NCBI GenBank assembly: GCA_964491115.1
Contig: CAZBEW010000003.1
Coordinates: 23,026-87,025 of the forward strand
From: an uncultured Pseudomonadales bacterium
GTDB lineage: Bacteria > Patescibacteriota > Microgenomatia > UBA1400 > PJMF01
Reading direction: 5' to 3'
DNA length: 64,000 nt
Shown here in pieces: positions 1 through 58,890 of this stretch. Both the position numbers and the translations under genes were made by a program. Position 1 is the first letter of the stretch. Each line of letters opens with the position of its first letter. Under the pieces are notes generated by a model. That model was given only the letters and a program-made list of their open reading frames with translations, was not told the DNA's origin and did no database searches.

Positions 1-97
1 GCGTTGTAAGCGATTGTGAATAAAGAAAATTAAGACGAACAATAATAAAAAAATTATTAAATAGTCAAAGATATTTAATTTATTAATAAAAACTTTT

Positions 98-1588: not shown

Positions 1589-4500
1589 AAAAACTAGCCA
1601 GTTATTTTTGTGGCTTGTTATTGTTGTTTTACTTGCCTTAATTTCTGTCACTTACTTATATAAAAAAAGCCAAAATTGGCAATTTTATACAGATAAAAGT
1701 ATTGGGCCAAATAATAAATTCACTATTTTTGATAATTTAATTTTTGACAATAATACAGTTTTTTTTAATAGTCAAAATAATAATACTTATGCCTTAAATA
1801 AAAATAGTGGTCAAATTAGCTGGATATTTAGTGCTGAATACTACAGCCCTTTTCCGCCAACAATTGCTGACGACAAAGTTTTTTTAGCAAATTTTGACGG
1901 CAACATTTATTGTCTCAACGAAAATACTGGCAAAAAAATTTGGCAATTTAGCACAGAAGAACAATATCAGCCTGATACACCAGTATTAAAATCAAGCAAT
2001 CATGACCTACTTTTTGTCGGTTCGAGAAATGGAGCTCTATATGCTTTAAACAGTGTCGATGGCTCATTGATATGGAAAAAACAATTTCAAGAACTCGATG
2101 CTGCTAAAGCTTTTGTTGGAGGGTCAATTCATTTTGGCAGCATTTATCTTGATAATGATGATGTCTATGTTTTTAATGCCGTAGAGAATAAGTTTTTTTC
2201 AATTGCACAATTAGATGGAACAATTAATTGGCAAATAGACAATCTAAGCTTCAGTTATAGATCGCCAATGTTTTATCCCGATCACATCATTATTAAACAA
2301 AATAAATATGCGCTTAGCATTGATAAAAAAACTGGATCAATGCAAAAAATTAATCGCAGTGGTCAAGAAAATGTCGCTTGGGAAATATTTAAAATTGAGG
2401 ACGATAAACAACAGCTATTGATTTTAGATGATCATGCTTTGCAAAAAATTGATATAAATTTTCGTGAAATTGAATGGACCGCAAATAATGTGGATAATGT
2501 TCTTTTTTGGCAAAATAACACAGAATCTCCAAGTGTAAAAACTGCTGGAGAGCAAATTATTGCCCAAACTTTCTCAAGACTAGAAAATCAGAATATTTTA
2601 CTTTTCCTTGATTATCACACTGGCGTCATCACTAAAACACAAAAAGTTGATAACTCGATTAACGATCAATTATACGATGACGACAATATTTTTCTGTCAA
2701 CGGGTACGGGAGCAGTTTATTCGATCAATTCTGCTACTTCAGCAATAAACTGGAAAGTCATAATTGACGGTGAAACAGACTCGCTACATTTAATTAAAAA
2801 TCAGCTGCTTATAATTTCACTGAAACCTAGCGGAAAGATTTCTTTAACATATTTAAATAAAGAAACAGGAGAAAAAAAGTGGACATATACCAGTAATTTT
2901 ATTAGTAATAAAAAAGACATCTATGTCAAAGATCAATCGGTATTTGTTTTTAATCAAGACAATACCCTGCTTAATAAAATTAACATCAGCAATAAAAAGC
3001 CAAAAGATAAAACAATAAAAAAAATAAATTTTGTTTATGATCAAGATCAAAACACTAAAGATCCTTATCTAAAAATTGCAAGAGCAAATAATAAGCTGTG
3101 GCAACTGACAGAAAAAATTTCAGCATTTAAATATCGCCTCAAAAATTTTAAAAATATTTATTCTTTTAATTTTGATCAAGAAATTAAAAATAATGTTTTA
3201 GAAATTTTAATCACTCATGACGAAAATCTTTATCAAAATAAATTTACTGATTTAAAAATTGAAGCAGTTTTAGAAAAAATCGACAAGCAAGACAAAATAA
3301 AGCTTAATGGTTTTTATTATGATCACAACACTTGGAAAATTCGCTTCTCCGCTCCAAGCCCCGGACAATATAAATATCAAATTAATATCAAAAGCCCATT
3401 TACTATCAAAAAGCATTCTGGAATTATCCAATTTGATGTGGGCAAAGAAGAAATTATTGGTACTCAACAAGGGTTATTGCTAATTAATAATAAAACAGTT
3501 TTCTTTCCTTTGGGCATACAGGGTGCCTTTGCAGACTGGAATTATAACGGGAACATGATGGATACAATGAGTAATTCTGCGACCGATAAGCCCGTTTCAG
3601 ATGCAAATGAGTTTTCTTATCTAAATATTGATGATTATCTTGACTTATACCAAACAGAAGCCAAAATAAATATTTTTCGTTATGGAGTTGATCATTGGAC
3701 GATGCCCCTCTGGCACTCAATTGACCCGAAAAACATTATTTTAAGTACCAATGGAGGCAAATTTGGTGACACCCTAATAGAAAAATTAAAAAATAAAGAT
3801 ATAAAAATTATCATGACGATTTTTGGCTTTTATCCTCCCTATCGTTCTTATGAAGAAATTAGCGATAAAAATAATCAACAAGCTCTAAAATTTTATCTAG
3901 ATTACGTGATTGCCCGTTATTCTGCCCACATCGATTTATGGGAATTAAGTAATGAGGCCGAAGCTCATGAACTTTGGTATGAGTTTGTGATAAATTATTT
4001 AAAAGAAAATGATCCCTACCACCATCCAATTAGCACTAACTGGGAAACTGAATCAGCTAAAGATTTAGACTTTTTATCGGTGCATTGGTATAACCCCGAC
4101 ATCACAGATCCTGGTCATTTAGCTAATCAAATGGGATATCTAAATCAGAAATATAATAATCAAGAAAAAGCTGTATTAGTTAGTGAATTTGGTTTCAAAA
4201 ATGTTAGCTATTTTGCTAATTCTGCGGAAAGCATGAGGGTGCTGAGCTGGTTAGGTAGTTTTCAAAATATGGGTTTAATTTTTTGGACTCAAGGTCAAAA
4301 TGGCATCTACAAAAATCTAGATAATGCCAATATTTATTTGGGGCCAACAGAAAGAGTTTATTTGCGCAATCTGCAAGAATTTTTACCAAAAAATTTAGCA
4401 ATACCCGTTGAAAAGGAAATGTTGGTAATTGCAGAATTACACACTCAAGCTTATTTATTAAAAAACCAAGATTACATTTTAGCCTATTTGTTAAAATTAG

Positions 4501-4688
4501 ATGAAAGTCAAGAAAAAAATGCTTGGCTAAATTTAAACTTAAATAATAAGGCCAAATTGGAATGGATCGAACCAAAAACAGGCAAGATTTTAGAAAAAGG
4601 CACCTTGGAAAAGGGTGAGCAAAGCATTCACATTCCAAATTTTGACTTAGATCTTGCCATGAAAATTACTTATTTAGATAATGAATAG
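1569..4688 (+). CDS. Secreted/anchored fusion protein: PQQ-like beta-propeller repeats plus C-terminal GH5-like glycoside hydrolase domain
   Basis: N-terminal TM/signal; repeated 'G.IYALN...G...W' blades typical of PQQ/BamB-like propellers; C-terminal 'LWELSNEAE' and 'VLVSEFGF' match the two catalytic Glu motifs (NEP / TEFG) of clan GH-A / GH5. Confidence 0.5.
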   Translation: MKKNINKKTSQLFLWLVIVVLLALISVTYLYKKSQNWQFYTDKSIGPNNKFTIFDNLIFDNNTVFFNSQNNNTYALNKNSGQISWIFSAEYYSPFPPTIADDKVFLANFDGNIYCLNENTGKKIWQFSTEEQYQPDTPVLKSSNHDLLFVGSRNGALYALNSVDGSLIWKKQFQELDAAKAFVGGSIHFGSIYLDNDDVYVFNAVENKFFSIAQLDGTINWQIDNLSFSYRSPMFYPDHIIIKQNKYALSIDKKTGSMQKINRSGQENVAWEIFKIEDDKQQLLILDDHALQKIDINFREIEWTANNVDNVLFWQNNTESPSVKTAGEQIIAQTFSRLENQNILLFLDYHTGVITKTQKVDNSINDQLYDDDNIFLSTGTGAVYSINSATSAINWKVIIDGETDSLHLIKNQLLIISLKPSGKISLTYLNKETGEKKWTYTSNFISNKKDIYVKDQSVFVFNQDNTLLNKINISNKKPKDKTIKKINFVYDQDQNTKDPYLKIARANNKLWQLTEKISAFKYRLKNFKNIYSFNFDQEIKNNVLEILITHDENLYQNKFTDLKIEAVLEKIDKQDKIKLNGFYYDHNTWKIRFSAPSPGQYKYQINIKSPFTIKKHSGIIQFDVGKEEIIGTQQGLLLINNKTVFFPLGIQGAFADWNYNGNMMDTMSNSATDKPVSDANEFSYLNIDDYLDLYQTEAKINIFRYGVDHWTMPLWHSIDPKNIILSTNGGKFGDTLIEKLKNKDIKIIMTIFGFYPPYRSYEEISDKNNQQALKFYLDYVIARYSAHIDLWELSNEAEAHELWYEFVINYLKENDPYHHPISTNWETESAKDLDFLSVHWYNPDITDPGHLANQMGYLNQKYNNQEKAVLVSEFGFKNVSYFANSAESMRVLSWLGSFQNMGLIFWTQGQNGIYKNLDNANIYLGPTERVYLRNLQEFLPKNLAIPVEKEMLVIAELHTQAYLLKNQDYILAYLLKLDESQEKNAWLNLNLNNKAKLEWIEPKTGKILEKGTLEKGEQSIHIPNFDLDLAMKITYLDNE

Positions 4689-5810
4689 TTGTTGATGTTA
4701 AAAAATAAAGTAATCATTATCCCGATTGAAAATGCTTGGGATCATAGCGCTGATTTTTTGCGCCAAACAGCCTTTGTTTTGAGTAAACACAATTTGGTTT
4801 ACATTTATGACCACAACAACCATTATTTTTTTGGCAAAAAAAAGCGGAAAAACGTTTACCCAAATTATAAAAACATCATATTTCATCAAGTTAAATATTA
4901 TTTGCCTTTTGAGAGATTTAAAATCATTGATAAGCTCAATCGCTACTTAAGTTTTAAATTATTTTTAGCAAAACATCGTCGTGCAGATAAAATTTTGTGG
5001 ATTTTTTATCCAAATTATTATGATTTTGCACAAGTAAACAGTCGAAAAATGCTAAAAATTTACGATTGTGTTGACTATAGTGAAGATCAGCAAAAAGAAA
5101 ATATTTTAATTAACAGCGTTGATTATTTTTTTGTTAACTCAAAAGCTTTAAAAAACTTGTACGCAAAAAGGAAACTGAACAAGCAAGCAATTTATATTAG
5201 CGCCCAAGGATTTTTCCAACCAAATGATAAAAAAATAAAATCAGTGCCACTTAAAAAAGGCAAAAGCAAAACTGTAATTGGTTATATTGGTGGCCTTAAT
5301 TGTCGCTTGAACTACCCACTACTTGATCAATTAATCAGCAATCACCCGGAATGGCTATTTGTATTTTATGGCCCAGAACAAAAAAATATTGAAAAAGATA
5401 AAATTTATCATACACAAAAATGGATTAAAAAATTAAAAGAACACAAAAATACTCTTTTTGGCTATAGTAATGATCGATATTTCATTTATGGTCTCATAAA
5501 AAGCTTTGATATAGCAATTATTCCTTATAATCTAGACTTGGTTTTCAATTTATATTGTTATCCAATGAAAATTTTTGAATATTTTTATCTGGGGGTGCCA
5601 GTTGTTACTAGTGCTATTCTTGAATTAAAAGAAAAACGTTTTGACGGGCTGATTAACATTGCCAATGATTATAAAAGTTGGGAAAATAGCATAGAAAAAT
5701 GGTTAGAAAACAAAATGCCTGCCAAAAAACAAAGACGACAGAGAGAGTTGGCAATAAACAATAGTTGGCAAAATAAAATTAAAAAAATAGCTAAGGTGAT
5801 AGATTGTTAA
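4689..5810 (+). CDS. Glycosyltransferase (GT1/GT4-like C-terminal domain)
   Basis: 'IGYIGGL..RLNYPLLDQL' and 'PMKIFEYFYLGVPVVTS' resemble the Glycos_transf_1 nucleotide-sugar-binding region (E-x7-E-like region). Confidence 0.45.
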   Translation: MLMLKNKVIIIPIENAWDHSADFLRQTAFVLSKHNLVYIYDHNNHYFFGKKKRKNVYPNYKNIIFHQVKYYLPFERFKIIDKLNRYLSFKLFLAKHRRADKILWIFYPNYYDFAQVNSRKMLKIYDCVDYSEDQQKENILINSVDYFFVNSKALKNLYAKRKLNKQAIYISAQGFFQPNDKKIKSVPLKKGKSKTVIGYIGGLNCRLNYPLLDQLISNHPEWLFVFYGPEQKNIEKDKIYHTQKWIKKLKEHKNTLFGYSNDRYFIYGLIKSFDIAIIPYNLDLVFNLYCYPMKIFEYFYLGVPVVTSAILELKEKRFDGLINIANDYKSWENSIEKWLENKMPAKKQRRQRELAINNSWQNKIKKIAKVIDC

Positions 5811-6701
5811 TTATTTACTTTTGGGTGATAGCTGAGGAATTGTTAACAGAAAGCGATTTGGGGAGTTGGATTCAAAAGAATCAAGTTTTATATTCGAGAT
5901 AAGCAAATTAGCTTTTGATATATAAGTGTGTAGTGTAAAAAATTCTTGCCATTTCTTTACTATACTTTCAAATTGAAGTGCTAAGCCTAAGTTTAGAATA
6001 AATATACCATTTTTATTGAGCGCGCCTTGAATGTCTTTGATAAATGCTCGATCAACAACTCCTTTATTAAAATTATAGCCATCAAACATATCTATAATTA
6101 TTAGATCGTAAGAACCGTTCACTAATTTCGGAAACTTTAAACCATCACCCTGTATTAAATTTATTTCAGAATCGTCTTTTAAAAAATACTTTTTTGCCCA
6201 TTCAATCATCGTTGGATTATATTCAATGACATCAACTTTTTTACCTATTTTATTTTCAACAAAATAACTAGCTAAAGAACAACCAGCTCCACCTAAAAGC
6301 AATATTTTTTGAGAAGATAAATTAGCGGTTAAATATTTAACTATGTCTAAAAAGAAATATTGCTTAGAATTTTTGTTAAAAAGCGGAGATCTACTACTAA
6401 AACCTGATGTTCCAGGTTGAGAAATTTCTCGAAAACTTTTATTTAAATCTCGTGGATAAATAAAATTACGCACATGATAAATATTTCCATCGATATTGCG
6501 TTTATCTAGTAAAAGAAAAAAACCTTCAGTAAAAATTTGATAAGCAATCCGTGCAAGGTAAAAAATGAGTATTCCAATAAGAATTAAGGCTATTGAGTGA
6601 CTAAAATACAAATCAGCAAATAAAATTAAAGATAAAAGAATACAAAAAAAAGTAAAAAATTCTTTTAAATTTAAACCATTTTTTAAATACATTTGCATCA
6701 A
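5811..6701 (-). CDS. Spermidine-synthase-like (aminopropyltransferase fold) protein with N-terminal TM segments
   Basis: 'LLLGGAGCSLASY', 'VDVIEYNPTMIEWAKKYF', 'INLIQGDG', 'YDLIIIDMFDG' fit the spermidine/spermine synthase Rossmann motifs; N-terminal hydrophobic helices. Confidence 0.45.
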   Translation of the reverse strand: MMQMYLKNGLNLKEFFTFFCILLSLILFADLYFSHSIALILIGILIFYLARIAYQIFTEGFFLLLDKRNIDGNIYHVRNFIYPRDLNKSFREISQPGTSGFSSRSPLFNKNSKQYFFLDIVKYLTANLSSQKILLLGGAGCSLASYFVENKIGKKVDVIEYNPTMIEWAKKYFLKDDSEINLIQGDGLKFPKLVNGSYDLIIIDMFDGYNFNKGVVDRAFIKDIQGALNKNGIFILNLGLALQFESIVKKWQEFFTLHTYISKANLLISNIKLDSFESNSPNRFLLTIPQLSPKSK

Positions 6702-6745
6702 ATTATATCATAAGTATAGGACCTCATTTTCTTTGCTATAATTCT

Positions 6746-7537
6746 TTGACTTATAAATTTAAGGTAGGTAATTCTATAGAACATAATATTTCTGATATGA
6801 AATTTTTAAATTATTTTAAAATAATTCTAAGCAAAATTGGATTGAGAGAACTTTTTATCGATTGGGGCTTGATTCATCCAGAATTACAACAAAGCCTTAT
6901 TAAGAGACAAGTTTCTAAAAAATTAATTAAAATTTACGACGGAGATGAGGGTCACGCAGTCAATTTTACTCAATACTCTTTAGGGTTTGGATATATTCAC
7001 TACGCTTTTATTCGCAATATAAAGGCTAAAAACATCCTATGCATCGGTTCTTGTAAAGGTTATATTCCAGCCATATTAGCTTTAGCTTGCAAAGATAATC
7101 AATTCGGAAGCGTTGACTTTGTTGATGCTGCTTACAGTCAATACAATAAAAAAGACAGTAAAAAACATTGGCGTGGTGTTGGCTTCTGGAAAGAAATTAA
7201 TCCAAAAAAACATTTTGCCAAAATTAAAGTAGATCAATATATTGATACTTATGTTATGACTTCGGAAGAATATGCAAAGAAATTTCCCAAGAAAAAATAC
7301 CAATATATTTACATCGACGGCGATCATTCTTATGAAGGAGTAAAGCTCGATTACAAATTATTTTGGCCCAAGCTTGAAAAAAATGGTTTTATGGTTTTTC
7401 ATGATGTGGTAGCTAAGGGATATTTAGATAAAGGCTTGTTTGGTGCTTGGAAATTTTGGCAAGAATTGAAAAATAAAAATAAAATCATTTTTCCTTTTCC
7501 CAAGGAGTCTGGTCTAGGAATTTTACAAAAGGATTAA
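6746..7537 (+). CDS. Class I SAM-dependent methyltransferase (TylF/CmcI, Methyltransf_24-like)
   Basis: 'ILCIGSCKGY' Gly-rich SAM loop; 'YIYIDGDHSYEGV...NGFMVFHD' matches the DGDHSY signature of the TylF/CmcI family. Confidence 0.55.
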   Translation: MTYKFKVGNSIEHNISDMKFLNYFKIILSKIGLRELFIDWGLIHPELQQSLIKRQVSKKLIKIYDGDEGHAVNFTQYSLGFGYIHYAFIRNIKAKNILCIGSCKGYIPAILALACKDNQFGSVDFVDAAYSQYNKKDSKKHWRGVGFWKEINPKKHFAKIKVDQYIDTYVMTSEEYAKKFPKKKYQYIYIDGDHSYEGVKLDYKLFWPKLEKNGFMVFHDVVAKGYLDKGLFGAWKFWQELKNKNKIIFPFPKESGLGILQKD

Positions 7538-7543
7538 AACAGC

Positions 7544-8791
7544 ATGTTTGGTGTAAAAACAAAAATACTAAACAAAATAAACAAAAATTTCAAAACTATT
7601 GATACTGATAAATCTATTACAAAAGTTGAGAGTTATATTTTAACGCGTTTGATAAAAAAAGAACTAAAAAAAGAGGCTGATATTAGTGACAATCAACAAG
7701 TAATAATAAAAAAAACTAATAATTTTGCTTCAAAAATCATTAAAAAAACTAGTGATTTTATGCCAAATAACTTGGGTAATTGGTCTATAAAAAACCCTCA
7801 CACACTTAGCGCTAAACTAGAACTAACCGCCATTAGAACAATAAAAAATCTTTTGGGTGCCAACAAAGAAATAATCGGGCACTTTAGTTCAGGAACAACT
7901 GAGGGTAATATTTATGCGACCTGGATAGCCCGCAATTACTTGCAAAAACAACTAAATTTAAAAGAATCACATAAAATTGTGATAATAAAAAGTTGTCTAG
8001 CCCACTATTCTATTGATAAAGCTGCAGACATAGTTGGTCTAAGACTCATAACAACTGGTATTCATCAATCCAAATATAATATTGATTTAAAATATTTAGA
8101 AAAAAATATTGCCTCTTTATATAATCAGGGAATTAGAGGGTTCATTATTCCATTAACTTTGGGTTATACGGTTACTGGCACAGATGATGAATATGTAAAA
8201 ATTGTTGATTTAGTCAAGAAGTTTGAAAAAGAAAAAGTTGATTGTAAATTCTTTTTATGGATTGATGCTGCATATTCTGGAATGCTAAAAGCTTATCTTG
8301 ACGATGATTTTCATCCTTTTGCTCAAAAAAGTATCCAATTAATCAGCACCGATTTACATAAAAGTTTAGCTATTCCTTATCCAGCTGGTATTTTGCTTTA
8401 CAGAAAAGAATTATTAGACTATATCAAAAAAACAATTCCATACATCGATCAATTTGATACTACGCTTTTAGGATCAAGGCCCGGCTCAAGCGTGTTGGCT
8501 AGTTGGTTTACTTTCATTAATCTAAGTAAAAAAGAGATTAGAAATTATTATAATAAGGCAAATGAAAGAAAAAATAACTTTTTAGAAAAGATTGTGAATG
8601 AAAATATTGGAGTACAAATAATTAACAATGCCACTAGTCTTCAGGCCTGCCTGATTAGCTTTAACAAGGCTTCCGATAAGATTTTGAACGATAAATATCA
8701 TTTAAAGAGTATTAACTATAAACTATTGTTTGGACAAAAAATTAAAACTGTTAAGCTATATAAACTATATTTCTTTATGAATCTGAAATAG
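7544..8791 (+). CDS. PLP-dependent group II decarboxylase (MfnA/tyrosine-glutamate decarboxylase-like)
   Basis: 'HFSSGTTEGNIYATWIAR' (GGTE-like) and 'STDLHKSLAIPYPAGILLYR' (S.D.HK PLP-lysine motif). Confidence 0.55.
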   Translation: MFGVKTKILNKINKNFKTIDTDKSITKVESYILTRLIKKELKKEADISDNQQVIIKKTNNFASKIIKKTSDFMPNNLGNWSIKNPHTLSAKLELTAIRTIKNLLGANKEIIGHFSSGTTEGNIYATWIARNYLQKQLNLKESHKIVIIKSCLAHYSIDKAADIVGLRLITTGIHQSKYNIDLKYLEKNIASLYNQGIRGFIIPLTLGYTVTGTDDEYVKIVDLVKKFEKEKVDCKFFLWIDAAYSGMLKAYLDDDFHPFAQKSIQLISTDLHKSLAIPYPAGILLYRKELLDYIKKTIPYIDQFDTTLLGSRPGSSVLASWFTFINLSKKEIRNYYNKANERKNNFLEKIVNENIGVQIINNATSLQACLISFNKASDKILNDKYHLKSINYKLLFGQKIKTVKLYKLYFFMNLK

Positions 8792-8794
8792 TAA

Positions 8795-9799
8795 ATGAAA
8801 AAAAGCCATCAAATAGATCTAAACACCATTAGTGAAAAAGAGTTTAAGAAAAAAATCAAAAAAAGAAGCTTTGAAAATACCAAGCTGATCGATTCTATCG
8901 AAAAGTATTTTATAGAAAAACGGGGCTATGTATTCAAAATGCCAAAACCAGAAGAATCGGTAATATTACTCTATTCTGGTGGTTTAGACTCGACAGTTGC
9001 CTGGTCTTATCTAATAGAAAAATACAAATTACATGTATATCCATTAGTATTTAAAAATAGAAACAGTTTTGGACAAAAAAAATCGATTTTTTATTTTAAA
9101 AAATATTTTAAAAAAAGATATGGTAATTATTATCACGAGCCCTTAGAAATATATAGCAATTTTTTTCCAGCAAAACTTTTCAAGCAAATGGCTGATCTAA
9201 AAAAGATTCATCCTGAAACCCTGTTGAACTACTTAATAGATAATCACAAATCTTTTAAATTTAATAATTTTTTTCCAGGATCAAATGCTTTAACTCCGAT
9301 TTCTGGCGTTATGTATCAAAAATATCTCGAAAACCAATATAATATAAAAATTAAAGCCATTTTTTTAGCAGTGCTGGCTGGAGATGGCACTGAAATTCCA
9401 TCGCAAAGTTTTACCTATTTGCGTAAGACTATGCTCTTTTTAGACGAATTTATTCAGACAGGAAATTTGCAAATTGCTTCAATTTTTTTTGAAAAGGAAA
9501 TAGGCTTGTTTTGTGAAAAAAAAGATATTATTAAACTAGGAGTTAAAACGCTTAAGATCCCCTTAGAAAAAACCTATAGTTGTTATGCAAAAAAATTATT
9601 TCACTGTAATGACTGCCTTGCCTGTTATTCAAGGCGTCTAGAGTTCAAGAAAGCAAATATTGTTGACAAAACTATGTACTATGATAAGCTTTTTATAGTA
9701 AAAAAAGTGGCTAAATTTAAGCATTTAGCGAAGTGTTATTTATTAAAAGGAAAAACTTTATGCAAGCATATCAAGCGCCAAGTTGTGAAAAAATCGTAA
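8795..9799 (+). CDS. PP-loop ATP pyrophosphatase, QueC-like (7-cyano-7-deazaguanine synthase family) with N-terminal extension
   Basis: PP-loop 'SGGLDST'; C-terminal Cys cluster 'SCYAKKLFHCNDCLACYSRR' resembles the QueC zinc-binding C..C..C..C motif. Confidence 0.45.
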   Translation: MKKSHQIDLNTISEKEFKKKIKKRSFENTKLIDSIEKYFIEKRGYVFKMPKPEESVILLYSGGLDSTVAWSYLIEKYKLHVYPLVFKNRNSFGQKKSIFYFKKYFKKRYGNYYHEPLEIYSNFFPAKLFKQMADLKKIHPETLLNYLIDNHKSFKFNNFFPGSNALTPISGVMYQKYLENQYNIKIKAIFLAVLAGDGTEIPSQSFTYLRKTMLFLDEFIQTGNLQIASIFFEKEIGLFCEKKDIIKLGVKTLKIPLEKTYSCYAKKLFHCNDCLACYSRRLEFKKANIVDKTMYYDKLFIVKKVAKFKHLAKCYLLKGKTLCKHIKRQVVKKS

Positions 9800-9871
9800 T
9801 TTCTGTTCTTTGTGGTGAAAATGAGACAATAGAATAGATAATCTTTTTTGCCAGTTTAATAGAGCCATATT

Positions 9872-10141
9872 ATGTTGCTTTATTGTCGTTCTGATTTTAT
9901 CTTCCAAAGAAAAATCGATAACACTCTTTGTTTATTAAAAAACAAAGACAAATATATTTATAGATTAAACGAAACAGCTAGTTTTTTGTGGCAAATACTG
10001 GAAAAAGAAGCCTCAAGTGAAGACCTAAGTCAAGCTTTAAGTAAAAAATACAATATCCCCTTGGCACAAGCATCCAACGATGTAGATAATTTTTTAACTT
10101 ATTGGCTGAAAGAAAAATTAATCAAAAAAGTTGTTCAATAA
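9872..10141 (+). CDS. PqqD-family protein (RiPP-recognition-element-like peptide chaperone)
   Basis: 89 aa; 'YIYRLNETASFLWQIL...EDLSQALSKKYNIP...ASNDVDNFLTYWLKEKLI' closely follows the PqqD consensus (Y.LN.t...iW.ll.g...eI...l...y.v....a..Dv..fl..L...gli). Confidence 0.5.
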   Translation: MLLYCRSDFIFQRKIDNTLCLLKNKDKYIYRLNETASFLWQILEKEASSEDLSQALSKKYNIPLAQASNDVDNFLTYWLKEKLIKKVVQ

Positions 10142-10555
10142 TCGCAATCTAAACAACAATCTTTGCCAGACGATAAATAATCGCTTATCAAAATAGCTAA
10201 GTTCACGATTTGTTTTTGATTTAGAAACAGCTAGGCCAACAAAGTCTTTTTTAGCAACTGGATCAAAATCAGCAACACTCAAATTATCACCCATGGTCAC
10301 CAACTTAATGCTAGGCTTGTTTTTTGTATATAGTTTTTTAATAACTCGGTGAATAATTAAATTTTTGTCAAAAGCTCGATAAAAACAAATTATGTCTCCA
10401 GTTTGAATTCTGGCAAACTGAGTTTTCTCCACCCAAACATTATCTCCGATTAAAAACAATGGCGCCATGCTATCACTTTTTATTTTTACTTGAAACATCG
10501 CGCCAATTGGTAAATTTAAAAATAATTTTGCAGAATTCAAAGTTTTTTTATTCAT
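10118..10555 (-). CDS. Signal peptidase I, ER/archaeal SipW-type (S26, Ser-His)
   Basis: Box B 'SDSMAPL', box C 'GDNVWV', box D 'IIHRV' (His in place of Lys), box E 'GDNLSVADFD'; translationally coupled with the ABC ATPase gene. Confidence 0.5.
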   Translation of the reverse strand: MNKKTLNSAKLFLNLPIGAMFQVKIKSDSMAPLFLIGDNVWVEKTQFARIQTGDIICFYRAFDKNLIIHRVIKKLYTKNKPSIKLVTMGDNLSVADFDPVAKKDFVGLAVSKSKTNRELSYFDKRLFIVWQRLLFRLRLLNNFFD

Positions 10556-11261
10556 TTTTTAGCATGATTAGCTTGTTGCAGTTTTCTTTTAAATATTGAA
10601 GGTTGTGACTAACTAACAAAAGTGTTGCTCCATTAGCAAACATTTCCTTCATTAATCGATTGGTTTTTTTTCTAAAATTTTCGTCACCCATGCTAATTAC
10701 TTCGTCCAATAATAGAATATCTGGCTCGGCGTGAACAGCAATACTAAAACCTAAGCGCAAGCGCATACCACTGGAATAAGTGTACAAGGGTGCAGTAATA
10801 AAATCGCCAATATCGGCAAAATCAATAATCTGCTTGAGTTTTTGTTCAATTTCTGTTTTTGACATACCCACAATTAGGCCATTTAAAAATATATTTTCTT
10901 GGCCAGTTAAGTCGGGGTGAAAACCAGCATCTAGGCTAATGAGAGAAACAATTTTACCTTTTGTTTGAACCGTCCCACTGGTTGGCTCACAAATACCGGC
11001 AATAATTTTCAACAAAGTGGTTTTGCCAGCTCCATTAGGCCCATAAAAGCCCACTTTTTCTCCCTTATGAATTGTTAAATTCACATCTTTGAGTGCCCAA
11101 AATTCTTCTTTTTTTTGGAAATGTATCATTCGACTCACATCTTCTGCAAGAGTCGGTTTTTCATGGGTGATGGTATATTTTTTGCTAATATTAGATAAAG
11201 AAATTACCACCTCATCGCTGATTTTTTTTCTTCGAATAATTGTTTCTGTTATTATTGTCAT
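10548..11261 (-). CDS. ABC transporter ATP-binding protein (Wzt/TagH-like polysaccharide exporter)
   Basis: Walker A 'GPNGAGKTT', signature 'YSSGMRLRL', Walker B 'ILLLDEV'. Confidence 0.85.
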   Translation of the reverse strand: MTIITETIIRRKKISDEVVISLSNISKKYTITHEKPTLAEDVSRMIHFQKKEEFWALKDVNLTIHKGEKVGFYGPNGAGKTTLLKIIAGICEPTSGTVQTKGKIVSLISLDAGFHPDLTGQENIFLNGLIVGMSKTEIEQKLKQIIDFADIGDFITAPLYTYSSGMRLRLGFSIAVHAEPDILLLDEVISMGDENFRKKTNRLMKEMFANGATLLLVSHNLQYLKENCNKLIMLKNE

Positions 11262-11273
11262 TTGAATCCAAAA

Positions 11274-12128
11274 TTATAGCCAATCGTCAAAGTTTTTACT
11301 TTCTTTTTTAAATACTCGCAGACCCAAATAAAAAACACAAATAATGATCACAACCGCTACCCAAATAAAGTTTGGCAAAGTTATAGGCAAACCCATCAGC
11401 GCATAATGGAACATCTCAATAATAGCTGTCATTGGATTTAAATAGAAAAGCGGTTGTAAAAATTCTGGCAATAAATTTAGTGCATAAACTACTGGTGTCG
11501 CATAAAACCACAGCATGACAGCCAGGGCCACCATAAAATTAACATCGCGAAAGCGCACATTGAGGGAAGAAGTAAATAAAGAAAAACCAACGGTAAAAAA
11601 AACTAATAATAATATGGCTGGTATTACCCACAGCATTCTCAACACGTAAAACAGCAATTGCATTAACCCATAACCCTCCAGCAATAACTTATCGCCAATT
11701 AGCACCACAATTAACAAAAGCAGGGCTACTGCAAAATGAAAAAGATTGGAAAAAATAATTGATAAGACAATGCTTTCTCTGGGAAATTTGGCCTTTTTAA
11801 TTAGACTTCCTTCATAAAAAAAAGCTGGAGTGGTTTTTGTTAAACTTTGCGCAAAAAAATTCCAAGGTAAAAGTCCAGCAAATAAATATAAAAAATAATT
11901 ATCAACCTTGACCGGCACAAAAAATTGGAAAACAAAACCCATCACCAACATTTGTAATAATGGATTTAACACAACCCATAAAAAACCAAAACTAGCCCTT
12001 TTATATCGAGCCTTAATTTCCTTTTGGGTCATGGCAGACAAAAAATCCAACCAATGGCGCTGTTTTTTGCTTAACTTCATAAACAATTTAATTGCTCTTT
12101 TTCTCTTAAAACACTCAAATAATAACAT
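11274..12128 (-). CDS. ABC-2 type transporter permease (Wzm/TagG-like)
   Basis: 6 TM; N-terminal 'KEIKARYKRASFGFLWVVLNPLL' is typical of ABC-2 polysaccharide/teichoic acid export permeases; adjacent to the ATPase. Confidence 0.7.
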   Translation of the reverse strand: MLLFECFKRKRAIKLFMKLSKKQRHWLDFLSAMTQKEIKARYKRASFGFLWVVLNPLLQMLVMGFVFQFFVPVKVDNYFLYLFAGLLPWNFFAQSLTKTTPAFFYEGSLIKKAKFPRESIVLSIIFSNLFHFAVALLLLIVVLIGDKLLLEGYGLMQLLFYVLRMLWVIPAILLLVFFTVGFSLFTSSLNVRFRDVNFMVALAVMLWFYATPVVYALNLLPEFLQPLFYLNPMTAIIEMFHYALMGLPITLPNFIWVAVVIIICVFYLGLRVFKKESKNFDDWL

Positions 12129-12174
12129 AAAAAAACATTAAGACTATCTTTAATTAACTTTTTCGATAAAATAT

Positions 12175-12867
12175 TTGCATATTACCGGGCTTATCCACAA
12201 TGAGCAGCAGCAAATGAAAAATTACAACTTTATTCATCATAGTTTTAAGGGTTTTTTGAAATCCTTTATCGATCTAATTTTAGCTTTAGTCGTTTTATGT
12301 GTTTTGTTGCCTTTTTTCATTATTTTTTGGCCAATTATGATTTGGCAAATTGGTTCACCAATTATTTTTAAACAAAAAAGAACTGGAAAAAATGGAAAAG
12401 TTTTTACCATTTATAAATTTCGTACTATGGTAAAAAATGCAGAATTAATCCGCGCAAAAAATCGGGCTAAGCTTTCTAAATTAAATTATGCCCCACTACC
12501 AATGTTTAAAATTGGTGACGATCCGCGTTTTATTAAATTTGGCAAATTCTTATCTCGCAGCGGTTTAGACGAACTTCCGCAGCTAATTAACATTATTAAA
12601 GGAGAAATGTCCTTAATTGGACCGAGACCGTTACCAGTTGCTGAAGCTAATTCTTTAAAAGATATTGATTACGACTGGTATACTTGGAGACATCAAGTTA
12701 AACCCGGTTTATTCTCACTGTGGGTTTTAGATGATAAAAGACATCAAGATCTGAAAACCTGGAAAAAATTAGAAAGAGAAACGTTAAAACTTAATCTGAT
12801 TCAGCAATATTTATTAATTTTTAAAGTAATTTTTTTACAATTACAAAGAATTTTGCAATTTAATTAA
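12175..12867 (+). CDS. Undecaprenyl-phosphate sugar phosphotransferase (bacterial sugar transferase, WbaP/WcaJ C-terminal-domain type)
   Basis: 'KFRTM...DELPQLINIIKGEMSLIGPRPL' canonical Bac_transf motif; N-terminal TM. Confidence 0.8.
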   Translation: MHITGLIHNEQQQMKNYNFIHHSFKGFLKSFIDLILALVVLCVLLPFFIIFWPIMIWQIGSPIIFKQKRTGKNGKVFTIYKFRTMVKNAELIRAKNRAKLSKLNYAPLPMFKIGDDPRFIKFGKFLSRSGLDELPQLINIIKGEMSLIGPRPLPVAEANSLKDIDYDWYTWRHQVKPGLFSLWVLDDKRHQDLKTWKKLERETLKLNLIQQYLLIFKVIFLQLQRILQFN

Positions 12868-12989: not shown

Positions 12990-14303
12990 ATGTCTGATCT
13001 AAGCAACTTTCTACCCAAAAACCATCTAAAAACTCCAGCAGAAGATGAAATGATCAAACCCATTAGTTCTCTAAATATACCCAAGAATGATCTTCCTCAG
13101 AATTCTACAGTGGGTGGAGGTGCTGGCAATTTAGCAAATAATGATTTAGTAGCAAACAGCGCTTCTTCAGATAATAAGCTTGCAGAAACAAACACTGCTG
13201 GAGAAAAAAATGGAGGAAAAGCTACAAAAAAATTCCAAATAAAATCAGCATCCAAGAAAAAAAATATCCTTCTATTGTTGGCATTACTGTTTCTTTTGGT
13301 CGGCAGTGGAGCTGGCTTACTGTTAATGAGACAGCGTCAAGATACGAGGCAAGAAGCTTACCTAATCTCTATAACTCCAAGCCCCTCTCCTCGTACAACC
13401 CAGCCTCCTGGCGGAGGTGGTTTTTGTGGCCCAAGTGCTTATGGCACTTATTGTGAGGCTTGTCGTACTCGTCCAGGCGGTTGCACAGAAGATGAGCGCT
13501 GGTATGGAAACTGTGTTCTAATTTATTGCCCTAATGGCAATCCAACTGGACAAGGTTGTCATGAAAATGATCCTGATGCATATTGGAAATTTGGTACTTG
13601 TACTAGTTTGCTAAGCGAAGCACGCAACAATCCAGAAGTGCCTGGTTGTTGGCAAGTAGACACTGTTGATAAGAAAAATGTATATTGTCATGTGATGGGC
13701 TGTACAAGTTATGAGCACGATTTAAGTAGATGTGGCAAAACAACACCAACACCACCAACCGTGCCACCAACAGCAATCCCGCCAACAACGATACCACCGA
13801 CCAGGCCACCAACACCAGGAGTTTCAACAACGGTGCAACCGACTGTAACGCCAACAGTGGTGCCTACCAGGCCACCAACACCAGGAGTTTCAACAACGGT
13901 GCCACCAACTGTAACACCAACAACAGTGCCTCCAACAGTAACCGGGACACTGGCTCCAACATCAACTGGTACTCCTGCACCTACAACTGAGCCAACAAAA
14001 GATCCAACATCTGTTCCAAGCACTCCTACACCAATAATTACGCAAGTGATTACTACTGTTGGCTGTAATGAAGCCTGTAAAGAAAACGCCGACTGTGCCA
14101 ATATCAGTCACATTTGTTATGAGGGTTTTTGTCGCCTAGATGTAAACCCAACTGACGTTAATTGTCGACTAGCTGATGGTGGCAATGTTATAGAAAGAGC
14201 TGTAACTGTGCCAACCGAATCTGGTTTTGCCGACTGGTTTAACTTCATTAAAGTTGGCTTTGGCATTCTTGGCTTAGGAGCTTTATTACTACTGCTTCTA
14301 TAA
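12990..14303 (+). CDS. Surface protein: N-terminal TM, 14-Cys domain, Pro/Thr-rich repeat linker, second Cys-rich domain, C-terminal hydrophobic anchor
   Basis: 'ILLLLALLFLLVGSGAGLLL' near the N-terminus; Cys-rich 'CGPSAYGTYCEACRTRPGGC...'; long 'TPTPPTVPPT...' tract; C-terminal 'ILGLGALLLLLL'. Confidence 0.55.
   Translation: MSDLSNFLPKNHLKTPAEDEMIKPISSLNIPKNDLPQNSTVGGGAGNLANNDLVANSASSDNKLAETNTAGEKNGGKATKKFQIKSASKKKNILLLLALLFLLVGSGAGLLLMRQRQDTRQEAYLISITPSPSPRTTQPPGGGGFCGPSAYGTYCEACRTRPGGCTEDERWYGNCVLIYCPNGNPTGQGCHENDPDAYWKFGTCTSLLSEARNNPEVPGCWQVDTVDKKNVYCHVMGCTSYEHDLSRCGKTTPTPPTVPPTAIPPTTIPPTRPPTPGVSTTVQPTVTPTVVPTRPPTPGVSTTVPPTVTPTTVPPTVTGTLAPTSTGTPAPTTEPTKDPTSVPSTPTPIITQVITTVGCNEACKENADCANISHICYEGFCRLDVNPTDVNCRLADGGNVIERAVTVPTESGFADWFNFIKVGFGILGLGALLLLLL
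13800..13931 (+). repeat. Two tandem copies of a 66-nt (22-aa PTRPPTPGVSTTV.PTVTPT..) unit inside a longer Pro/Thr low-complexity tract (about 13738-14040)
   Basis: Direct nucleotide comparison: 'accaggccaccaacaccaggagtttcaacaacggtgc...' recurs with period 66 at 13800 and 13866. Confidence 0.8.
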
Positions 14304-14408: not shown

Positions 14409-14485
14409 GCGTGTGTAGCTCAATCGGTTAGAGCTCCAAGCTTATACCTTGGCGGTTTTAGGTTCGAGTCCTAACACACGCACCA
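14409..14485 (+). tRNA. tRNA-Ile with anticodon UAU (encoded CCA end)
   Basis: Manual fold: acceptor GCGTGTG/CACACGC, D-stem GCTC/GAGC, anticodon stem CCAAG/CTTGG with loop CTTATAC (anticodon TAT at 14443-14445), T-stem TTAGG/CCTAA with TTCGAGT loop, discriminator A, CCA. Confidence 0.8.
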
Positions 14486-14487
14486 TT

Positions 14488-22709: not shown

Positions 22710-22754
22710 AGCATATTATGCCAAAATAAGTAGAAAAACCAAGCCAAAACTAAA

Positions 22755-58871: not shown

Positions 58872-58890
58872 AATTCTTAACTTAAAATTA

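What the first reader, a model, noticed from the sequence alone, without database searches (positions are those of the whole stretch)
6746..12128. PqqD-like protein, QueC-like PP-loop ATPase, PLP decarboxylase, TylF-like methyltransferase, SipW-type signal peptidase and ABC exporter in one neighbourhood
PqqD-family proteins normally act as peptide-binding RiPP recognition elements. Here an 89-aa PqqD-like gene sits immediately after a QueC-like PP-loop ATPase (SGGLDS plus a C-terminal 4-Cys zinc site), a group-II PLP decarboxylase and a DGDHSY-type methyltransferase. Immediately downstream, on the opposite strand and translationally coupled, are an ER-type signal peptidase I and a Wzm/Wzt-type ABC exporter. 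This could be an undescribed peptide or small-molecule modification and export system embedded in a glycan locus, or a novel sugar/polyamine decoration pathway. No precursor peptide gene was confidently identified.
Basis: inference. Interest (0 to 1): 0.6.

Follow-up and report, generated by a model that had tools for sequence, protein, structure and literature searches.

The report
QueC-type ribosomal peptide modification cassette
The gene cluster is real, and it contains a previously missed 25-codon gene for a small peptide, which makes it look like an undescribed pathway in tiny uncultured (CPR/Patescibacteria) bacteria that modifies, trims and exports a ribosomally made peptide using an enzyme family so far known only from nucleobase chemistry and phage defence.

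Summary
Pfam assigns Methyltransf_24, Pyridoxal_deC, QueC, PqqD, S24/S26 peptidase, ABC_tran and ABC2_membrane to the stated ORFs.

The missing precursor gene exists at 9760-9837 (+): MQAYQAPSCEKIVISVLCGENETIE. It overlaps the QueC-like stop and lies just upstream of PqqD.

I compared 48 distinct QueC-like homologues, nearly all from Patescibacteria.
- 31 have a PqqD gene, 31 have such a peptide and 30 have the S26 peptidase.
- The 32 distinct peptides are 20-31 aa. All share an ungapped YxxP-x8-[AV]-h-[ACL] block followed by a variable tail of 2-8 residues.
- Every strong peptide hit lies within 132 nt of the QueC-like gene.
- Natural fusions exist: QueC-PqqD, QueC-S26, ABC ATPase-S26 and GT1-S26.

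The QueC-like protein is not an orthodox QueC. It scores 38.5 bits against a cut-off of 150.3, and only the PP-loop and Zn ribbon align.

Best reading: this is an RRE-guided RiPP-like pathway. A QueC-family ATP-dependent ligase modifies a carboxylate of the short peptide tail. A cytoplasmic SipW-type peptidase removes the YxxP leader, and a Wzm/Wzt-type ABC-2 pump exports the product. The decarboxylase, methyltransferase and SpeE-like genes are variable accessories that probably supply an amine.

The parts have 2026 precedents: LPP peptides, FzmA/PesC, and Cap9/QatC. I found no report of this combination.

The chemistry and the link to the surrounding glycan genes remain inferred.

The parts
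9760..9837 (+). Candidate precursor peptide gene, 25 aa: MQAYQAPSCEKIVISVLCGENETIE. It has a YxxP leader motif, a conserved 15-residue block and a variable 7-residue tail.
   Evidence: ATG start with an aaagga sequence 8 nt upstream. Homologous ORFs lie next to the QueC-like gene in 31 of 48 distinct loci. An HMM built from 22 distant peptides found no hit with E<1e-5 anywhere else among 21,038 small ORFs in 781 kb. The window's own peptide scores only E=2.5 with that HMM. There is no Pfam or NCBIfam family for the peptide.
8795..9799 (+). QueC-family PP-loop ATPase with a Zn ribbon. Proposed RRE-guided ATP-dependent carboxylate-activating ligase.
   Evidence: PF06508 E=7e-14, but TIGR00364 scores 38.5 against a cut-off of 150.3. 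SGGxDS, four Cys, R43, R210, R280, D291 and Y295 are invariant in 37 homologues. AF2 model has pLDDT 87.8. Top folds are QueC 3bl5 and Cap9 9nto. Only the PP-loop and Zn ribbon align to QueC, Cap9 and QatC. Fusions to PqqD and to S26 occur in homologues.
9872..10141 (+). Discrete PqqD-type RiPP recognition element (RRE).
   Evidence: PF05402 E=1e-14. The best NCBIfam hits are lasso PqqD chaperones, below cut-off. The four nearest solved structures are lasso/LPP-type discrete RREs: TbiB1 5v1u, 9x90_B, 9x8z_B and TfuB1.
10118..10555 (-). Soluble SipW/SEC11-type S26 serine peptidase. Proposed leader peptidase.
   Evidence: TIGR02228 scores 64.1, above its cut-off of 51.85. It aligns to the human SEC11A/C catalytic core. 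The SxSMxP serine (Ser29), HR[VI] histidine (His69) and KGD(N) box are conserved in 31 distinct homologues, including the fused ones. There is no TM segment: maximum Kyte-Doolittle 19-residue mean is 0.94. The precedent is LppS in PMC13381572.
10548..11261 (-). Wzt/TagH-like ABC ATPase of the exporter.
   Evidence: ABC_tran E=5e-24. TagH and Wzt are the best NCBIfam hits, below cut-offs. In L005, L007, L009, L017, L031, L033, L035 and L050 the orthologue carries the S26 peptidase domain at its C-terminus.
11274..12128 (-). ABC-2 (Wzm-like) permease of the exporter.
   Evidence: ABC2_membrane E=8e-17. Wzm/RfbD is the best NCBIfam hit. It is found with the ATPase in 25 of 48 loci.
6746..7537 (+). 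Methyltransf_24 class I SAM-dependent methyltransferase. A frequent accessory gene.
   Evidence: PF13578 E=2e-18. Present within 6 kb of 27 of 48 distinct QueC-like genes and usually adjacent to the decarboxylase. No NCBIfam or PDB sequence hit.
7544..8791 (+). Group II PLP-dependent amino-acid decarboxylase. A variable accessory and the proposed source of an amine.
   Evidence: PF00282 E=2.5e-13. Nearest structures are histidine, tyrosine/aspartate (MfnA) and serine decarboxylases, at about 1e-16. Present in 16 of 48 loci. Absent in L001 and L022-L027 but present in L021. An Orn/DAP/Arg decarboxylase occupies the same place in L007.
5811..6701 (-). Membrane-anchored spermidine-synthase-like (aminopropyltransferase-fold) protein. 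An occasional accessory.
   Evidence: Spermine_synth E=3e-10. It has an N-terminal hydrophobic segment (KD 2.25). It accompanies the cassette in 7 of 48 loci, for example L001, L003, L010 and L034.
4689..5810 (+). GT1 (TuaH-like) glycosyltransferase. Context gene that may be linked to the cassette.
   Evidence: Glycos_transf_1 E=5e-8. A homologous GT1 domain is fused to the S26 peptidase domain in L028/L057, in a 508-aa protein.

Best explanation
This is a RiPP-like cassette that is conserved in CPR/Patescibacteria.

**Proposed mechanism**
1. A 25-aa peptide (9760-9837) is translated.
2. Its N-terminal YxxP-containing block of 15 ungapped residues is bound by the discrete PqqD-type RRE.
3. The RRE presents the peptide to the QueC-family PP-loop enzyme. 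In many relatives the RRE is fused to this enzyme.
4. The enzyme uses ATP to adenylate a carboxylate of the short variable tail. This is most likely the C-terminal alpha-carboxylate, or otherwise the frequent Glu.
5. The enzyme then replaces AMP with a nitrogen nucleophile. This could be ammonia, as in QueC. Where the decarboxylase, methyltransferase or SpeE-like genes are present, it could be an amine they make.
6. The soluble SipW-type S26 peptidase, also RRE-assisted, cuts off the leader about 11-13 residues after the Pro.
7. The Wzm/Wzt-type ABC-2 transporter exports the product. In many relatives the transporter carries the peptidase domain on its ATPase.

**Shown here**
- The genes and the peptide family.
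- Their tight co-occurrence.
- The fusions.
- Conservation of the catalytic motifs.
- The fact that the enzyme is not an orthodox QueC.

**Inferred**
- The binding partners.
- The site and chemistry of the modification.
- The cleavage site.
- What is exported.
For: **The peptide**
- I found 32 distinct peptides of 20-31 aa. Y and P are invariant, the 15-residue block has no gaps, and the tail is hypervariable at 2-8 residues.
- Every strong HMM hit lies within 132 nt of a QueC-like gene, and none lies elsewhere in 781 kb.
- The peptide moves with the QueC-like gene when gene order changes, as in L005, L015, L017 and L050.

**Co-occurrence**
- PqqD occurs in 31, the peptide in 31 and S26 in 30 of 48 distinct homologues.
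- 30 of 31 PqqD-positive loci have the peptide.

**Fusions**
- QueC-PqqD: P0073, P0143, P0147, P0152, P0154, P0161.
- QueC-S26: P0088.
- ABC ATPase-S26: L005, L007, L033.
- GT1-S26: L028.
- The QueC-PqqD fusion locus L062 also carries YxxP ORFs.

**Individual components**
- The S26 catalytic Ser, His and Asp motifs are conserved in 31 sequences, and there is no TM segment.
- The PqqD protein is nearest to lasso/LPP-type RREs.

**Published precedents**
- A SipW-like peptidase plus RRE plus YxxP leader is an experimentally shown leader-processing unit (PMC13381572).
- PP-loop AS-like enzymes with a fused RRE amidate or nitrilate the C-terminal carboxylate of about 22-mer YxxP peptides (PMC13622209, PMC13060819).
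- QueC-family enzymes adenylate a carboxylate and pass it to NH3 or to a protein amine (PMC13279940, PMC13329287).
Against: - No expression or product data exist.
- In the window's own clade the peptide ORF overlaps the QueC-like 3' end. It is recovered only weakly by an HMM trained on distant clades: E=2.5 for the window and 0.0027 for L027.
- A PqqD-less clade of QueC-like genes keeps the methyltransferase, decarboxylase, GT1 and ABC-2 genes but has no peptide: L011, L013, L016, L044, L051, L058. The enzyme family can therefore work on something other than a peptide.
- 8 of 32 tails lack an acidic residue and two tails are only 2 residues long. No single side-chain target is universal.
- The exporter is of a type known for lipid-linked glycans and teichoic acids, not for peptides.
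- The constant embedding among GT, Wzy_C and Bac_transf genes is unexplained.
Confidence: 0.7

Rival explanations
1. This is glycan or small-molecule decoration only. The QueC-like enzyme amidates a carboxylate on a sugar or polymer, such as a uronic acid, with an amine made by the decarboxylase, methyltransferase or SpeE-like enzymes. The product is exported by Wzm/Wzt, and the peptide, PqqD and S26 genes are not substrates of the ligase.
For: A PqqD-less clade retains the QueC-like, MT24, DC2, GT1 and ABC-2 genes. The locus sits among Wzy_C, GT1 and Bac_transf genes. PF06508 already includes the O-antigen amidotransferase WbpG (PMC13329287). Two non-homologous decarboxylases occupy the same position, which argues that an amine is needed.
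Against: QueC-PqqD and QueC-S26 fusions exist. The peptide gene always abuts the QueC-like gene, even after rearrangement. PqqD, S26 and the peptide co-occur. The closest relatives sampled (63-81% identity) have no decarboxylase at all.
Confidence: 0.12
2. This is a lasso-like macrolactam pathway. After the S26 peptidase exposes a new N-terminus, the QueC-like enzyme adenylates the tail's Glu or C-terminal carboxylate, and the new alpha-amine attacks it to give a very small cyclic peptide.
For: The component logic matches lasso B1/B2/C/D: RRE, protease, PP-loop ATPase and ABC exporter. The RRE is nearest to lasso B1 proteins. 24 of 32 tails contain Asp or Glu and 15 of 32 end in Glu. Cap9 and QatC use a protein N-terminal amine as nucleophile (PMC13279940).
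Against: Tails are only 2-8 residues, whereas lasso rings need 7-9 residues plus a tail. 8 of 32 tails have no acidic residue. The protease and ATPase are not the lasso families. This reading does not explain the methyltransferase and decarboxylase.
Confidence: 0.08
3. This is an anti-phage defence module of the Cap9/QatC type. The QueC-like enzyme would attach a 7-deazaguanine carboxylate to the N-terminus of a partner protein or peptide.
For: The profile's best PDB sequence hits are Cap9 (4e-9) and QatC (3e-5). The family shares the D-x-T-x-Y motif after the Zn ribbon with QatC. PADLOC gives partial QueC and QatC hits.
Against: No CD-NTase, Cap10, QatA, QatB or QatD was found in the window or in related loci. 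The central region that carries the CDG-binding motifs in QueC and Cap9 does not align. The context is cell-envelope glycan genes. The peptides lack the N-terminal MG motif.
Confidence: 0.04
4. This is an ordinary queuosine-precursor QueC that lies by chance next to unrelated genes.
For: It passes the Pfam QueC gathering score. Several database records name homologues '7-cyano-7-deazaguanine synthase'.
Against: The TIGR00364 equivalog scores 38.5 bits against a cut-off of 150.3. The protein is 334 aa against about 220 aa, with N-terminal and internal additions. Only the PP-loop and Zn ribbon align to QueC. No queD or queE gene is among its conserved neighbours, but PqqD, the peptide and S26 are.
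Confidence: 0.01

Closest known systems
LPP (linear polyphosphorylated peptide) RiPP clusters of Bacillota: LppA/LppB/LppS (Popov et al., Nat Commun 2026, PMC13381572)
   Same: Both have a discrete PqqD-type RRE, a soluble archaeal/SipW-type signal peptidase I used as leader peptidase, and a precursor with an N-terminal YxxP motif. The catalytic Ser is at position 29 and the His at about 68-69 in both. Both are embedded in polysaccharide loci.
   Different: The window has no HprK-like kinase. NTP_transf_5 appears only in a few relatives (L018, L062). The exporter is ABC-2 Wzm/Wzt rather than MsbA-like. Precursors are 20-31 aa rather than 35-200 aa. The signature enzyme is a QueC-family ligase. 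The host phylum is Patescibacteria.
C-terminal carboxylate modification of short scaffold peptides by asparagine-synthetase-like enzymes: FzmA/FzmZ in fosfazinomycin (PMC13622209) and PesC in nitrilobacillins (PMC13060819)
   Same: The peptides are very short, at about 22 aa, and have an N-terminal YxxP motif. A PP-loop ATP-dependent enzyme, often fused to a C-terminal RRE, acts on them. A SAM methyltransferase follows. Proteolysis then releases a small C-terminal fragment.
   Different: The ATPase here is QueC-family (Zn ribbon, no glutaminase domain), not AS-like. A dedicated S26 leader peptidase and an ABC-2 exporter are present. The chemistry here is unproven.
QueC-family protein ligases Cap9 (type IV CBASS) and QatC (QatABCD) (PMC13279940, PMC13329287)
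   Same: The fold is the same: SGGxDS PP-loop plus Cys4 Zn ribbon. These are the best PDB sequence hits. The QueC scaffold is repurposed to act on a polypeptide. A D-x-T-x-Y motif after the Zn ribbon is shared with QatC.
   Different: Cap9 and QatC activate 7-carboxy-7-deazaguanine and transfer it to a protein N-terminus within defence operons. Here there is no CD-NTase, QatA, QatB or QatD, the central substrate region does not align, and substrate recruitment is through an RRE.
Lasso peptide biosynthesis (B1 RRE, B2 protease, C cyclase, D ABC exporter)
   Same: The division of labour is the same, and so are the YxxP leader motif and the RRE type (TbiB1 and TfuB1 are the nearest structures).
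   Different: The protease is S26 rather than a transglutaminase-like Cys protease. The ATPase is QueC-like rather than AS-like. The tail is too short for a threaded lasso.
Wzm/Wzt (TagG/TagH) ABC-2 exporters of lipid-linked glycans
   Same: The permease and ATPase families match, and the neighbourhood contains Wzy_C, GT and Bac_transf genes.
   Different: In many relatives the C-terminal domain of the ATPase is an active-looking S26 peptidase. That position corresponds to the C-terminal carbohydrate-binding module some Wzt proteins carry (my own recollection, not checked here). The arrangement is reminiscent of peptidase-containing bacteriocin exporters.

Membership tests
[quoted passage not shown] | SGGxDS PP-loop and C-terminal Cys4 Zn site | tested here: met
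   SGGLDS at residues 61-66 and Cys263/271/274/277 are invariant in 37 homologues.
[quoted passage not shown] | Score above the equivalog cut-off, length of about 220 aa, and the substrate motifs YxQxHxxE, VPxRN and YPDC (PMC13329287) | tested here: not met
   38.5 bits against a cut-off of 150.3. The protein is 334 aa. The family consensus shows none of the three motifs. Only the PP-loop and Zn ribbon align to 3bl5.
[quoted passage not shown] | Genomic linkage to queD/queE, and a complete queuosine pathway in the genome | tested here: inconclusive
   No QueD or QueE family appears among the neighbours in eight Pfam-annotated loci. The whole genomes could not be scanned with these tools.
RRE-dependent RiPP pathway | Short precursor gene with a conserved recognition sequence and a variable core | tested here: met
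   32 distinct peptides of 20-31 aa, with invariant Y and P, a 15-residue ungapped block and a variable 2-8-residue tail.
RRE-dependent RiPP pathway | PqqD-type RRE, discrete or fused to the modifying enzyme | tested here: met
   PF05402 E=1e-14. QueC-PqqD fusions exist.
RRE-dependent RiPP pathway | Demonstrated post-translational modification of the peptide | not testable with these tools
   This needs co-expression or in-vitro reconstitution with mass spectrometry.
LPP family (PMC13381572) | SipW-like SpI leader peptidase, discrete RRE and YxxP leader | tested here: met
   TIGR02228 is above its cut-off. The Ser/His/Asp motifs are conserved. The PqqD protein and YxxP peptide are present.
LPP family (PMC13381572) | HprK-like kinase, NTP transferase, MsbA-like exporter and precursors of 35-200 aa | tested here: not met
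   None of these is among the ten ORFs from 4689 to 12867. The exporter is ABC-2. The peptides are 20-31 aa. NTP_transf_5 appears only in L018 and L062.
Lasso peptide pathway | Transglutaminase-like B2 protease, AS-like cyclase, and a core of at least about 14 aa with Asp or Glu at position 7-9 | tested here: not met
   Pfam finds S24/S26 and QueC instead. Tails are 2-8 residues.
Cap9/QatC deazaguanylation systems | Partner CD-NTase/Cap10 or QatA/QatB/QatD in the operon, and a substrate with an N-terminal Met-Gly motif | tested here: not met
   There are no such neighbours. PADLOC hits only the QueC-like protein itself. The peptides begin MK, MQ or MR.
Wzm/Wzt-type ABC-2 exporter | ABC2_membrane permease plus a TagH/Wzt-like ATPase | tested here: met
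   PF01061 and PF00005 match. The best NCBIfam hits are TagH, Wzt and Wzm, but all are below the equivalog cut-offs. The substrate is unknown.

The most novel reading that the evidence does not exclude
The ribosomal peptide is not a free product. The QueC-like ligase joins it, through its C-terminal or Glu carboxylate or through its newly exposed N-terminus, to an amine or uronic acid on a lipid-linked surface glycan. The Wzm/Wzt transporter recognises the leader as an export tag, and its fused S26 domain clips the leader off during export. The result would be a cell-surface polysaccharide capped or decorated with a gene-encoded peptide, a hybrid of RiPP and glycan biosynthesis in CPR bacteria.

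Several observations are compatible with this reading:
- the S26 fusions to the Wzt-like ATPase and to a GT1 glycosyltransferase;
- the invariable glycan-locus context;
- the PqqD-less sister clade that keeps the ligase, methyltransferase and decarboxylase with GT and ABC-2 genes.
Probability: 0.12. Interest if true: 0.9.

Novelty: new variant of a known kind. Interest (0 to 1): 0.72.

Why it matters
CPR/Patescibacteria have tiny genomes and are thought to have very little specialised biosynthesis. A conserved, diversified RiPP-like cassette gives them a dedicated peptide product. About 244 clusters at 50% identity match the enzyme profile at E<=1e-30. The variable core suggests the product is involved in interaction with hosts or neighbours, or in their unusual cell envelope.

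The cassette also adds a third function to the QueC scaffold, after nucleobase synthesis and defence-related protein deazaguanylation. That function is RRE-guided action on a ribosomal peptide. It would be a second, independent recruitment of PP-loop chemistry to peptide carboxylates, alongside the asparagine-synthetase-like enzymes FzmA and PesC.

The peptidase-ABC-2 fusions suggest a previously unrecognised analogue of peptidase-containing bacteriocin exporters.

The system is small: the peptide plus three to five genes. It is directly testable by co-expression in E. coli.

Tried and rejected
**Hypotheses rejected**
- Orthodox QueC: rejected on the equivalog score, length, alignment extent and gene context.
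- Known defence system: PADLOC found only partial QueC and QatC hits and no partner proteins.
- RNA element in the QueC-PqqD gap: Rfam at gathering threshold found only a tRNA at 14409-14482 in the whole window.

**Searches that found nothing**
- An existing family for the peptide: none in Pfam or NCBIfam, even at E<=10.
- Literature searches for QueC+RiPP+PqqD and for 'QueC-like'+'precursor peptide' returned nothing.
- The 2026 survey of PF06508 does not mention PqqD, peptides or Patescibacteria.
- The methyltransferase has no PDB sequence relative and no NCBIfam family.

**Analyses that were uninformative or limited**
- The decarboxylase substrate could not be assigned. Histidine, tyrosine/aspartate and serine decarboxylases are all equally distant.
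- An HMM built from the window's own peptide clade does not reach the distant clades. The reverse search reaches the window clade only weakly. The link between the two clades therefore rests on the anchored motif, the fixed spacing and the position.
- I did not scan the whole window for queuosine genes, because their absence from 64 kb would not be informative.
- AF2 co-folding of the peptide with PqqD, the ligase or the peptidase was not possible under the tool's input rules.

Full report
**1. Observation**

- 6746-7537(+): Methyltransf_24, with the DGDHSY motif.
- 7544-8791(+): Pyridoxal_deC.
- 8795-9799(+): QueC, with SGGLDS and four C-terminal Cys.
- 9872-10141(+): PqqD.
- 10118-10555(-): Peptidase_S24/S26.
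- 10548-11261(-): ABC_tran.
- 11274-12128(-): ABC2_membrane.

NCBIfam adds three points.
- The peptidase passes the archaeal/ER-type signal peptidase I model TIGR02228, at 64.1 bits against a cut-off of 51.85.
- The transporter is most like TagH/Wzt and Wzm.
- The PP-loop protein fails the QueC equivalog, at 38.5 bits against 150.3.

The flanks hold a Wzy_C-like protein, a 1039-aa beta-propeller/DUF5060 protein, a TuaH-like GT1, a membrane-anchored spermidine-synthase-like protein and a Bac_transf phosphoglycosyl transferase.

**2. The cassette is conserved**

A search with the QueC-like protein returned 81 clusters, almost all from Patescibacteria. Neighbourhood look-ups gave 7 related loci, and two collection scans gave 54 more, for 61 in total. 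I annotated them with HMMs seeded from the window proteins.

The counts among 48 distinct QueC-like proteins are:

| Feature within 6 kb | Loci |
|---|---|
| PqqD gene | 31 |
| S26 peptidase | 30 |
| Methyltransf_24 | 27 |
| ABC ATPase | 25 |
| Group II decarboxylase | 16 |
| SpeE-like gene | 7 |

The typical order is MT24-(decarboxylase)-QueC-like-PqqD, converging on S26-ABC-ABC2. This order holds down to about 35% identity.

The decarboxylase is variable. It is present in the window and in L021 (94% identity). It is absent from L001 and L022-L027 (63-81%). In L007 a non-homologous Orn/DAP/Arg decarboxylase takes its place.

A profile search of 1.84 billion representative proteins found 244 clusters at E<=1e-30.

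**3. The missing precursor peptide**

I translated the stretch between the QueC-like and PqqD genes in all loci. This revealed a conserved small ORF.

In the window it lies at 9760-9837(+). It has an ATG start and an aaagga sequence 8 nt upstream, and it overlaps the last 40 nt of the QueC-like ORF. It encodes MQAYQAPSCEKIVISVLCGENETIE.

I collected 32 distinct peptides of 20-31 aa.
- When anchored on the Tyr, all share an ungapped 15-residue block.
- The block reads Y-x-x-P-x-x-[KE]-[KR]-[IV]-x-[IL]-[KS]-[AV]-[LI]-[LAC], and Y and P are invariant.
- A hypervariable tail of 2-8 residues follows.
- 24 of 32 tails contain Asp or Glu, and 15 of 32 end in Glu.

An HMM built from 22 distant peptides finds no hit with E<1e-5 anywhere except within 132 nt of a QueC-like gene. 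The search covered 21,038 candidate small ORFs in 781 kb. The same HMM picks up the window clade only weakly: E=0.0027 for L027 and 2.5 for the window.

Within the window clade, the peptide frame stays conserved even where the overlapping QueC tail frame diverges or terminates earlier, as in L024 and L025.

Where gene order is inverted to PqqD then QueC-like (L005, L015, L017, L050), the peptide gene sits on the opposite strand directly after the QueC-like gene. So it travels with that gene and does not act as a leader of PqqD.

30 of 31 PqqD-positive loci have the peptide. No Pfam, NCBIfam or Rfam family covers it.

**4. Fusions tie the parts together**

Pfam confirms the following fusions:
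- QueC-like fused to a C-terminal PqqD domain: P0073, P0143, P0147, P0152, P0154, P0161.
- QueC-like fused to the S26 peptidase: P0088, encoded next to a Pyridoxal_deC gene in L063.
- Wzt-like ABC ATPase fused to a C-terminal S26 domain: L005, L007, L033.
- GT1 fused to S26: L028.
- S26 fused to NTP_transf_5: L018.

By my local HMMs, L009, L017, L031, L035 and L050 also carry the ABC ATPase-S26 fusion.

The locus of the QueC-PqqD fusion P0073 also carries YxxP ORFs, with a radical SAM, ScmC, NTP_transf_5 and a second PqqD.

**5. The individual proteins**

*QueC-like protein.* The alignment of 37 homologues keeps several residues invariant: SGGxDS, four Cys, R43, P50, R210, R280, D291 and Y295. 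The AF2 model is confident, at pLDDT 87.8. It is closest to QueC 3bl5 and Cap9 9nto_B, with roughly 100 extra residues.

At sequence level only the PP-loop and Zn ribbon align to Cap9, QatC or QueC. The central, substrate-binding part does not align. A D-x-T-x-Y motif after the Zn ribbon is shared with QatC.

A July 2026 survey defines the canonical QueC motifs as YxQxHxxE, VPxRN and YPDC. The family consensus shows none of them. That survey describes no peptide-linked cluster.

*S26 protein.* It aligns to the catalytic core of human SEC11A/C. Ser29 (SxSMxP), His69 (HRV) and the GDN box are kept in all 31 distinct homologues, including the fused ones. It has no transmembrane segment. In the fusions it must be cytoplasmic.

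*PqqD protein.* Its four nearest solved structures are all discrete lasso/LPP-type RREs: TbiB1, 9x90_B, 9x8z_B and TfuB1.

*Decarboxylase and methyltransferase.* The decarboxylase is equally distant from histidine, tyrosine/aspartate and serine decarboxylases. The methyltransferase has no informative relative.

**6. What is known**

Three 2026 lines of work supply precedents.

(i) Popov et al. (PMC13381572) showed in Bacillota that a SipW-like signal peptidase I (LppS, catalytic S29/H68/D93) is a RiPP leader peptidase.
- It needs a discrete RRE (LppB) bound to a YxxP leader.
- Those LPP clusters lie in capsule loci.
- They use an HprK kinase, an NTP transferase and an MsbA-type pump.

(ii) AS-like PP-loop enzymes act on the C-terminal carboxylate of peptides.
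- Some carry a fused C-terminal RRE.
- The substrates include about 22-mer YxxP scaffold peptides.
- The products are a hydrazide, amide or nitrile.
- Methylation and proteolytic release follow (FzmA/FzmZ in PMC13622209; PesC in PMC13060819).

(iii) QueC-family enzymes Cap9 and QatC adenylate a carboxylate and hand it to a protein N-terminal amine instead of ammonia (PMC13279940; PMC13329287).

No paper in the searchable library links QueC-family proteins to RREs or precursor peptides.

**7. Most likely mechanism**

*Shown.* The evidence above establishes a gene-encoded short peptide with a lasso/LPP-type recognition motif, and an RRE. It also establishes a QueC-family ATPase that is often fused to that RRE or to the peptidase. 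The remaining parts are an active-looking soluble S26 peptidase and an ABC-2 exporter that often carries the peptidase.

*Inferred.*
1. The RRE binds the YxxP block and presents the tail to the QueC-like enzyme.
2. The enzyme adenylates a carboxylate and couples it to a nitrogen nucleophile.
3. The S26 peptidase then removes the leader about 11-13 residues after the Pro. In the window this is around Cys18/Gly19. The estimate comes from the conserved small/hydrophobic triad and from the analogy with P-13 in LPP.
4. The transporter exports the product.

I favour the C-terminal alpha-carboxylate as the target. It is the only carboxylate common to all 32 tails.

I also favour a nucleophile that is partly supplied by the decarboxylase/methyltransferase pair. 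That pair accompanies QueC-like genes even in the PqqD-less clade, and two unrelated decarboxylase families occupy the same slot.

These chemical details carry low confidence.

**8. Rivals and open points**

A PqqD-less clade (L011, L013, L016, L044, L051, L058) keeps the QueC-like, MT24, DC2, GT1 and ABC-2 genes without PqqD, S26 or a peptide. Part of the enzyme family therefore probably modifies something else, plausibly a glycan carboxylate.

The PqqD-containing cassettes may be connected to the surrounding glycan machinery. The GT1-S26 and Wzt-S26 fusions point that way. This underlies the most novel reading, a peptide-capped glycan.

The other rivals fare as follows:
- A lasso-like mini-macrolactam is possible but disfavoured by the tail length.
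- Defence-type deazaguanylation lacks its partner proteins.
- Orthodox queuosine synthesis is rejected.

**9. Verdict**

It is a new variant of a known kind. It is an RRE-dependent RiPP-type pathway with a SipW-type leader peptidase. It is built around an enzyme family not previously tied to RiPPs, paired with an ABC-2 exporter, and found in CPR bacteria.

Interest is 0.72.

Noticed in passing
window 1-10000 versus 10001-64000: G+C is 28-31% across the first 10 kb (Wzy_C through the QueC-like gene), against 33-40% in the rest of the window. The plus-strand half of the cassette sits in an AT-rich block that may have been acquired separately.
   Followed up: no
window 7544-8791; compare L001 9996-10001 and L007 8760-9977: The decarboxylase gene is an indel among close relatives. 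It is present in the window and L021 and absent in L001 and L022-L027, where MT24 abuts the QueC-like gene. In L007 a non-homologous Orn/DAP/Arg decarboxylase occupies the same slot.
   Followed up: partly
window 12990-14303 (+): This ORF encodes a 437-aa protein with an N-terminal hydrophobic segment, long Pro/Thr-rich repeats, Cys-rich blocks and a C-terminal hydrophobic tail. It lies just downstream of the Bac_transf gene and is a possible surface glycoprotein. A 429-aa counterpart with no Pfam hit sits at the same place in L002.
   Followed up: no
window 14409-14482 (+): A tRNA gene, the only Rfam match in the 64-kb window. It overlaps the start of a mechanically listed 162-aa ORF at 14449-14937.
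   Followed up: no
window 43342-47216 (-) and 49827-61719: dnaA (43342-44859) lies next to a TraG/VirB4-like P-loop ATPase (44964-47216). Three very large ORFs (1108, 863 and 942 aa) have no Pfam hit at E<=1e-5. A DUF4012 protein of 1030 aa lies at 35970-39062.
   Followed up: no
L062 5900-10450: The locus of the QueC-PqqD fusion P0073 has a different architecture. It holds two YxxP ORFs (9287-9421 and 7829-7966, minus strand), a radical SAM protein, a ScmC-family protein, NTP_transf_5 and a second discrete PqqD. There is no S26 peptidase within 8 kb.
   Followed up: partly
P0170 (481 aa) and L006 1-820: One family member is fused to a Ham1/ITPase-like domain. In L006 a second QueC-family gene lies next to a MazG-like gene. 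Both partners are nucleotide pyrophosphatases, which hints that some relatives handle nucleotide-like substrates.
   Followed up: no
window 5811-6701 (-): The membrane-anchored SpeE-like protein matches the PADLOC model 'mad2' (mads_2) at E=5e-16. This is probably a shared methyltransferase-fold similarity.
   Followed up: no
L014 (CP011212.1) versus P0050: The same protein and contig (853,053 bp) is titled 'candidate division TM6 bacterium GW2011_GWF2_28_16' in one collection and 'Candidatus Pacebacteria bacterium GW2011_GWF2_38_9' in another source. Several MAG loci carrying the cassette are labelled 'uncultured Gammaproteobacteria'. The taxonomic labels of these records should be treated with caution.
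   Followed up: no
window 20877-24053 (-): An ATP-dependent (archaeal/eukaryal-type) DNA ligase (20877-22709) lies next to a Fic/DOC family protein (22755-24053).
   Followed up: no
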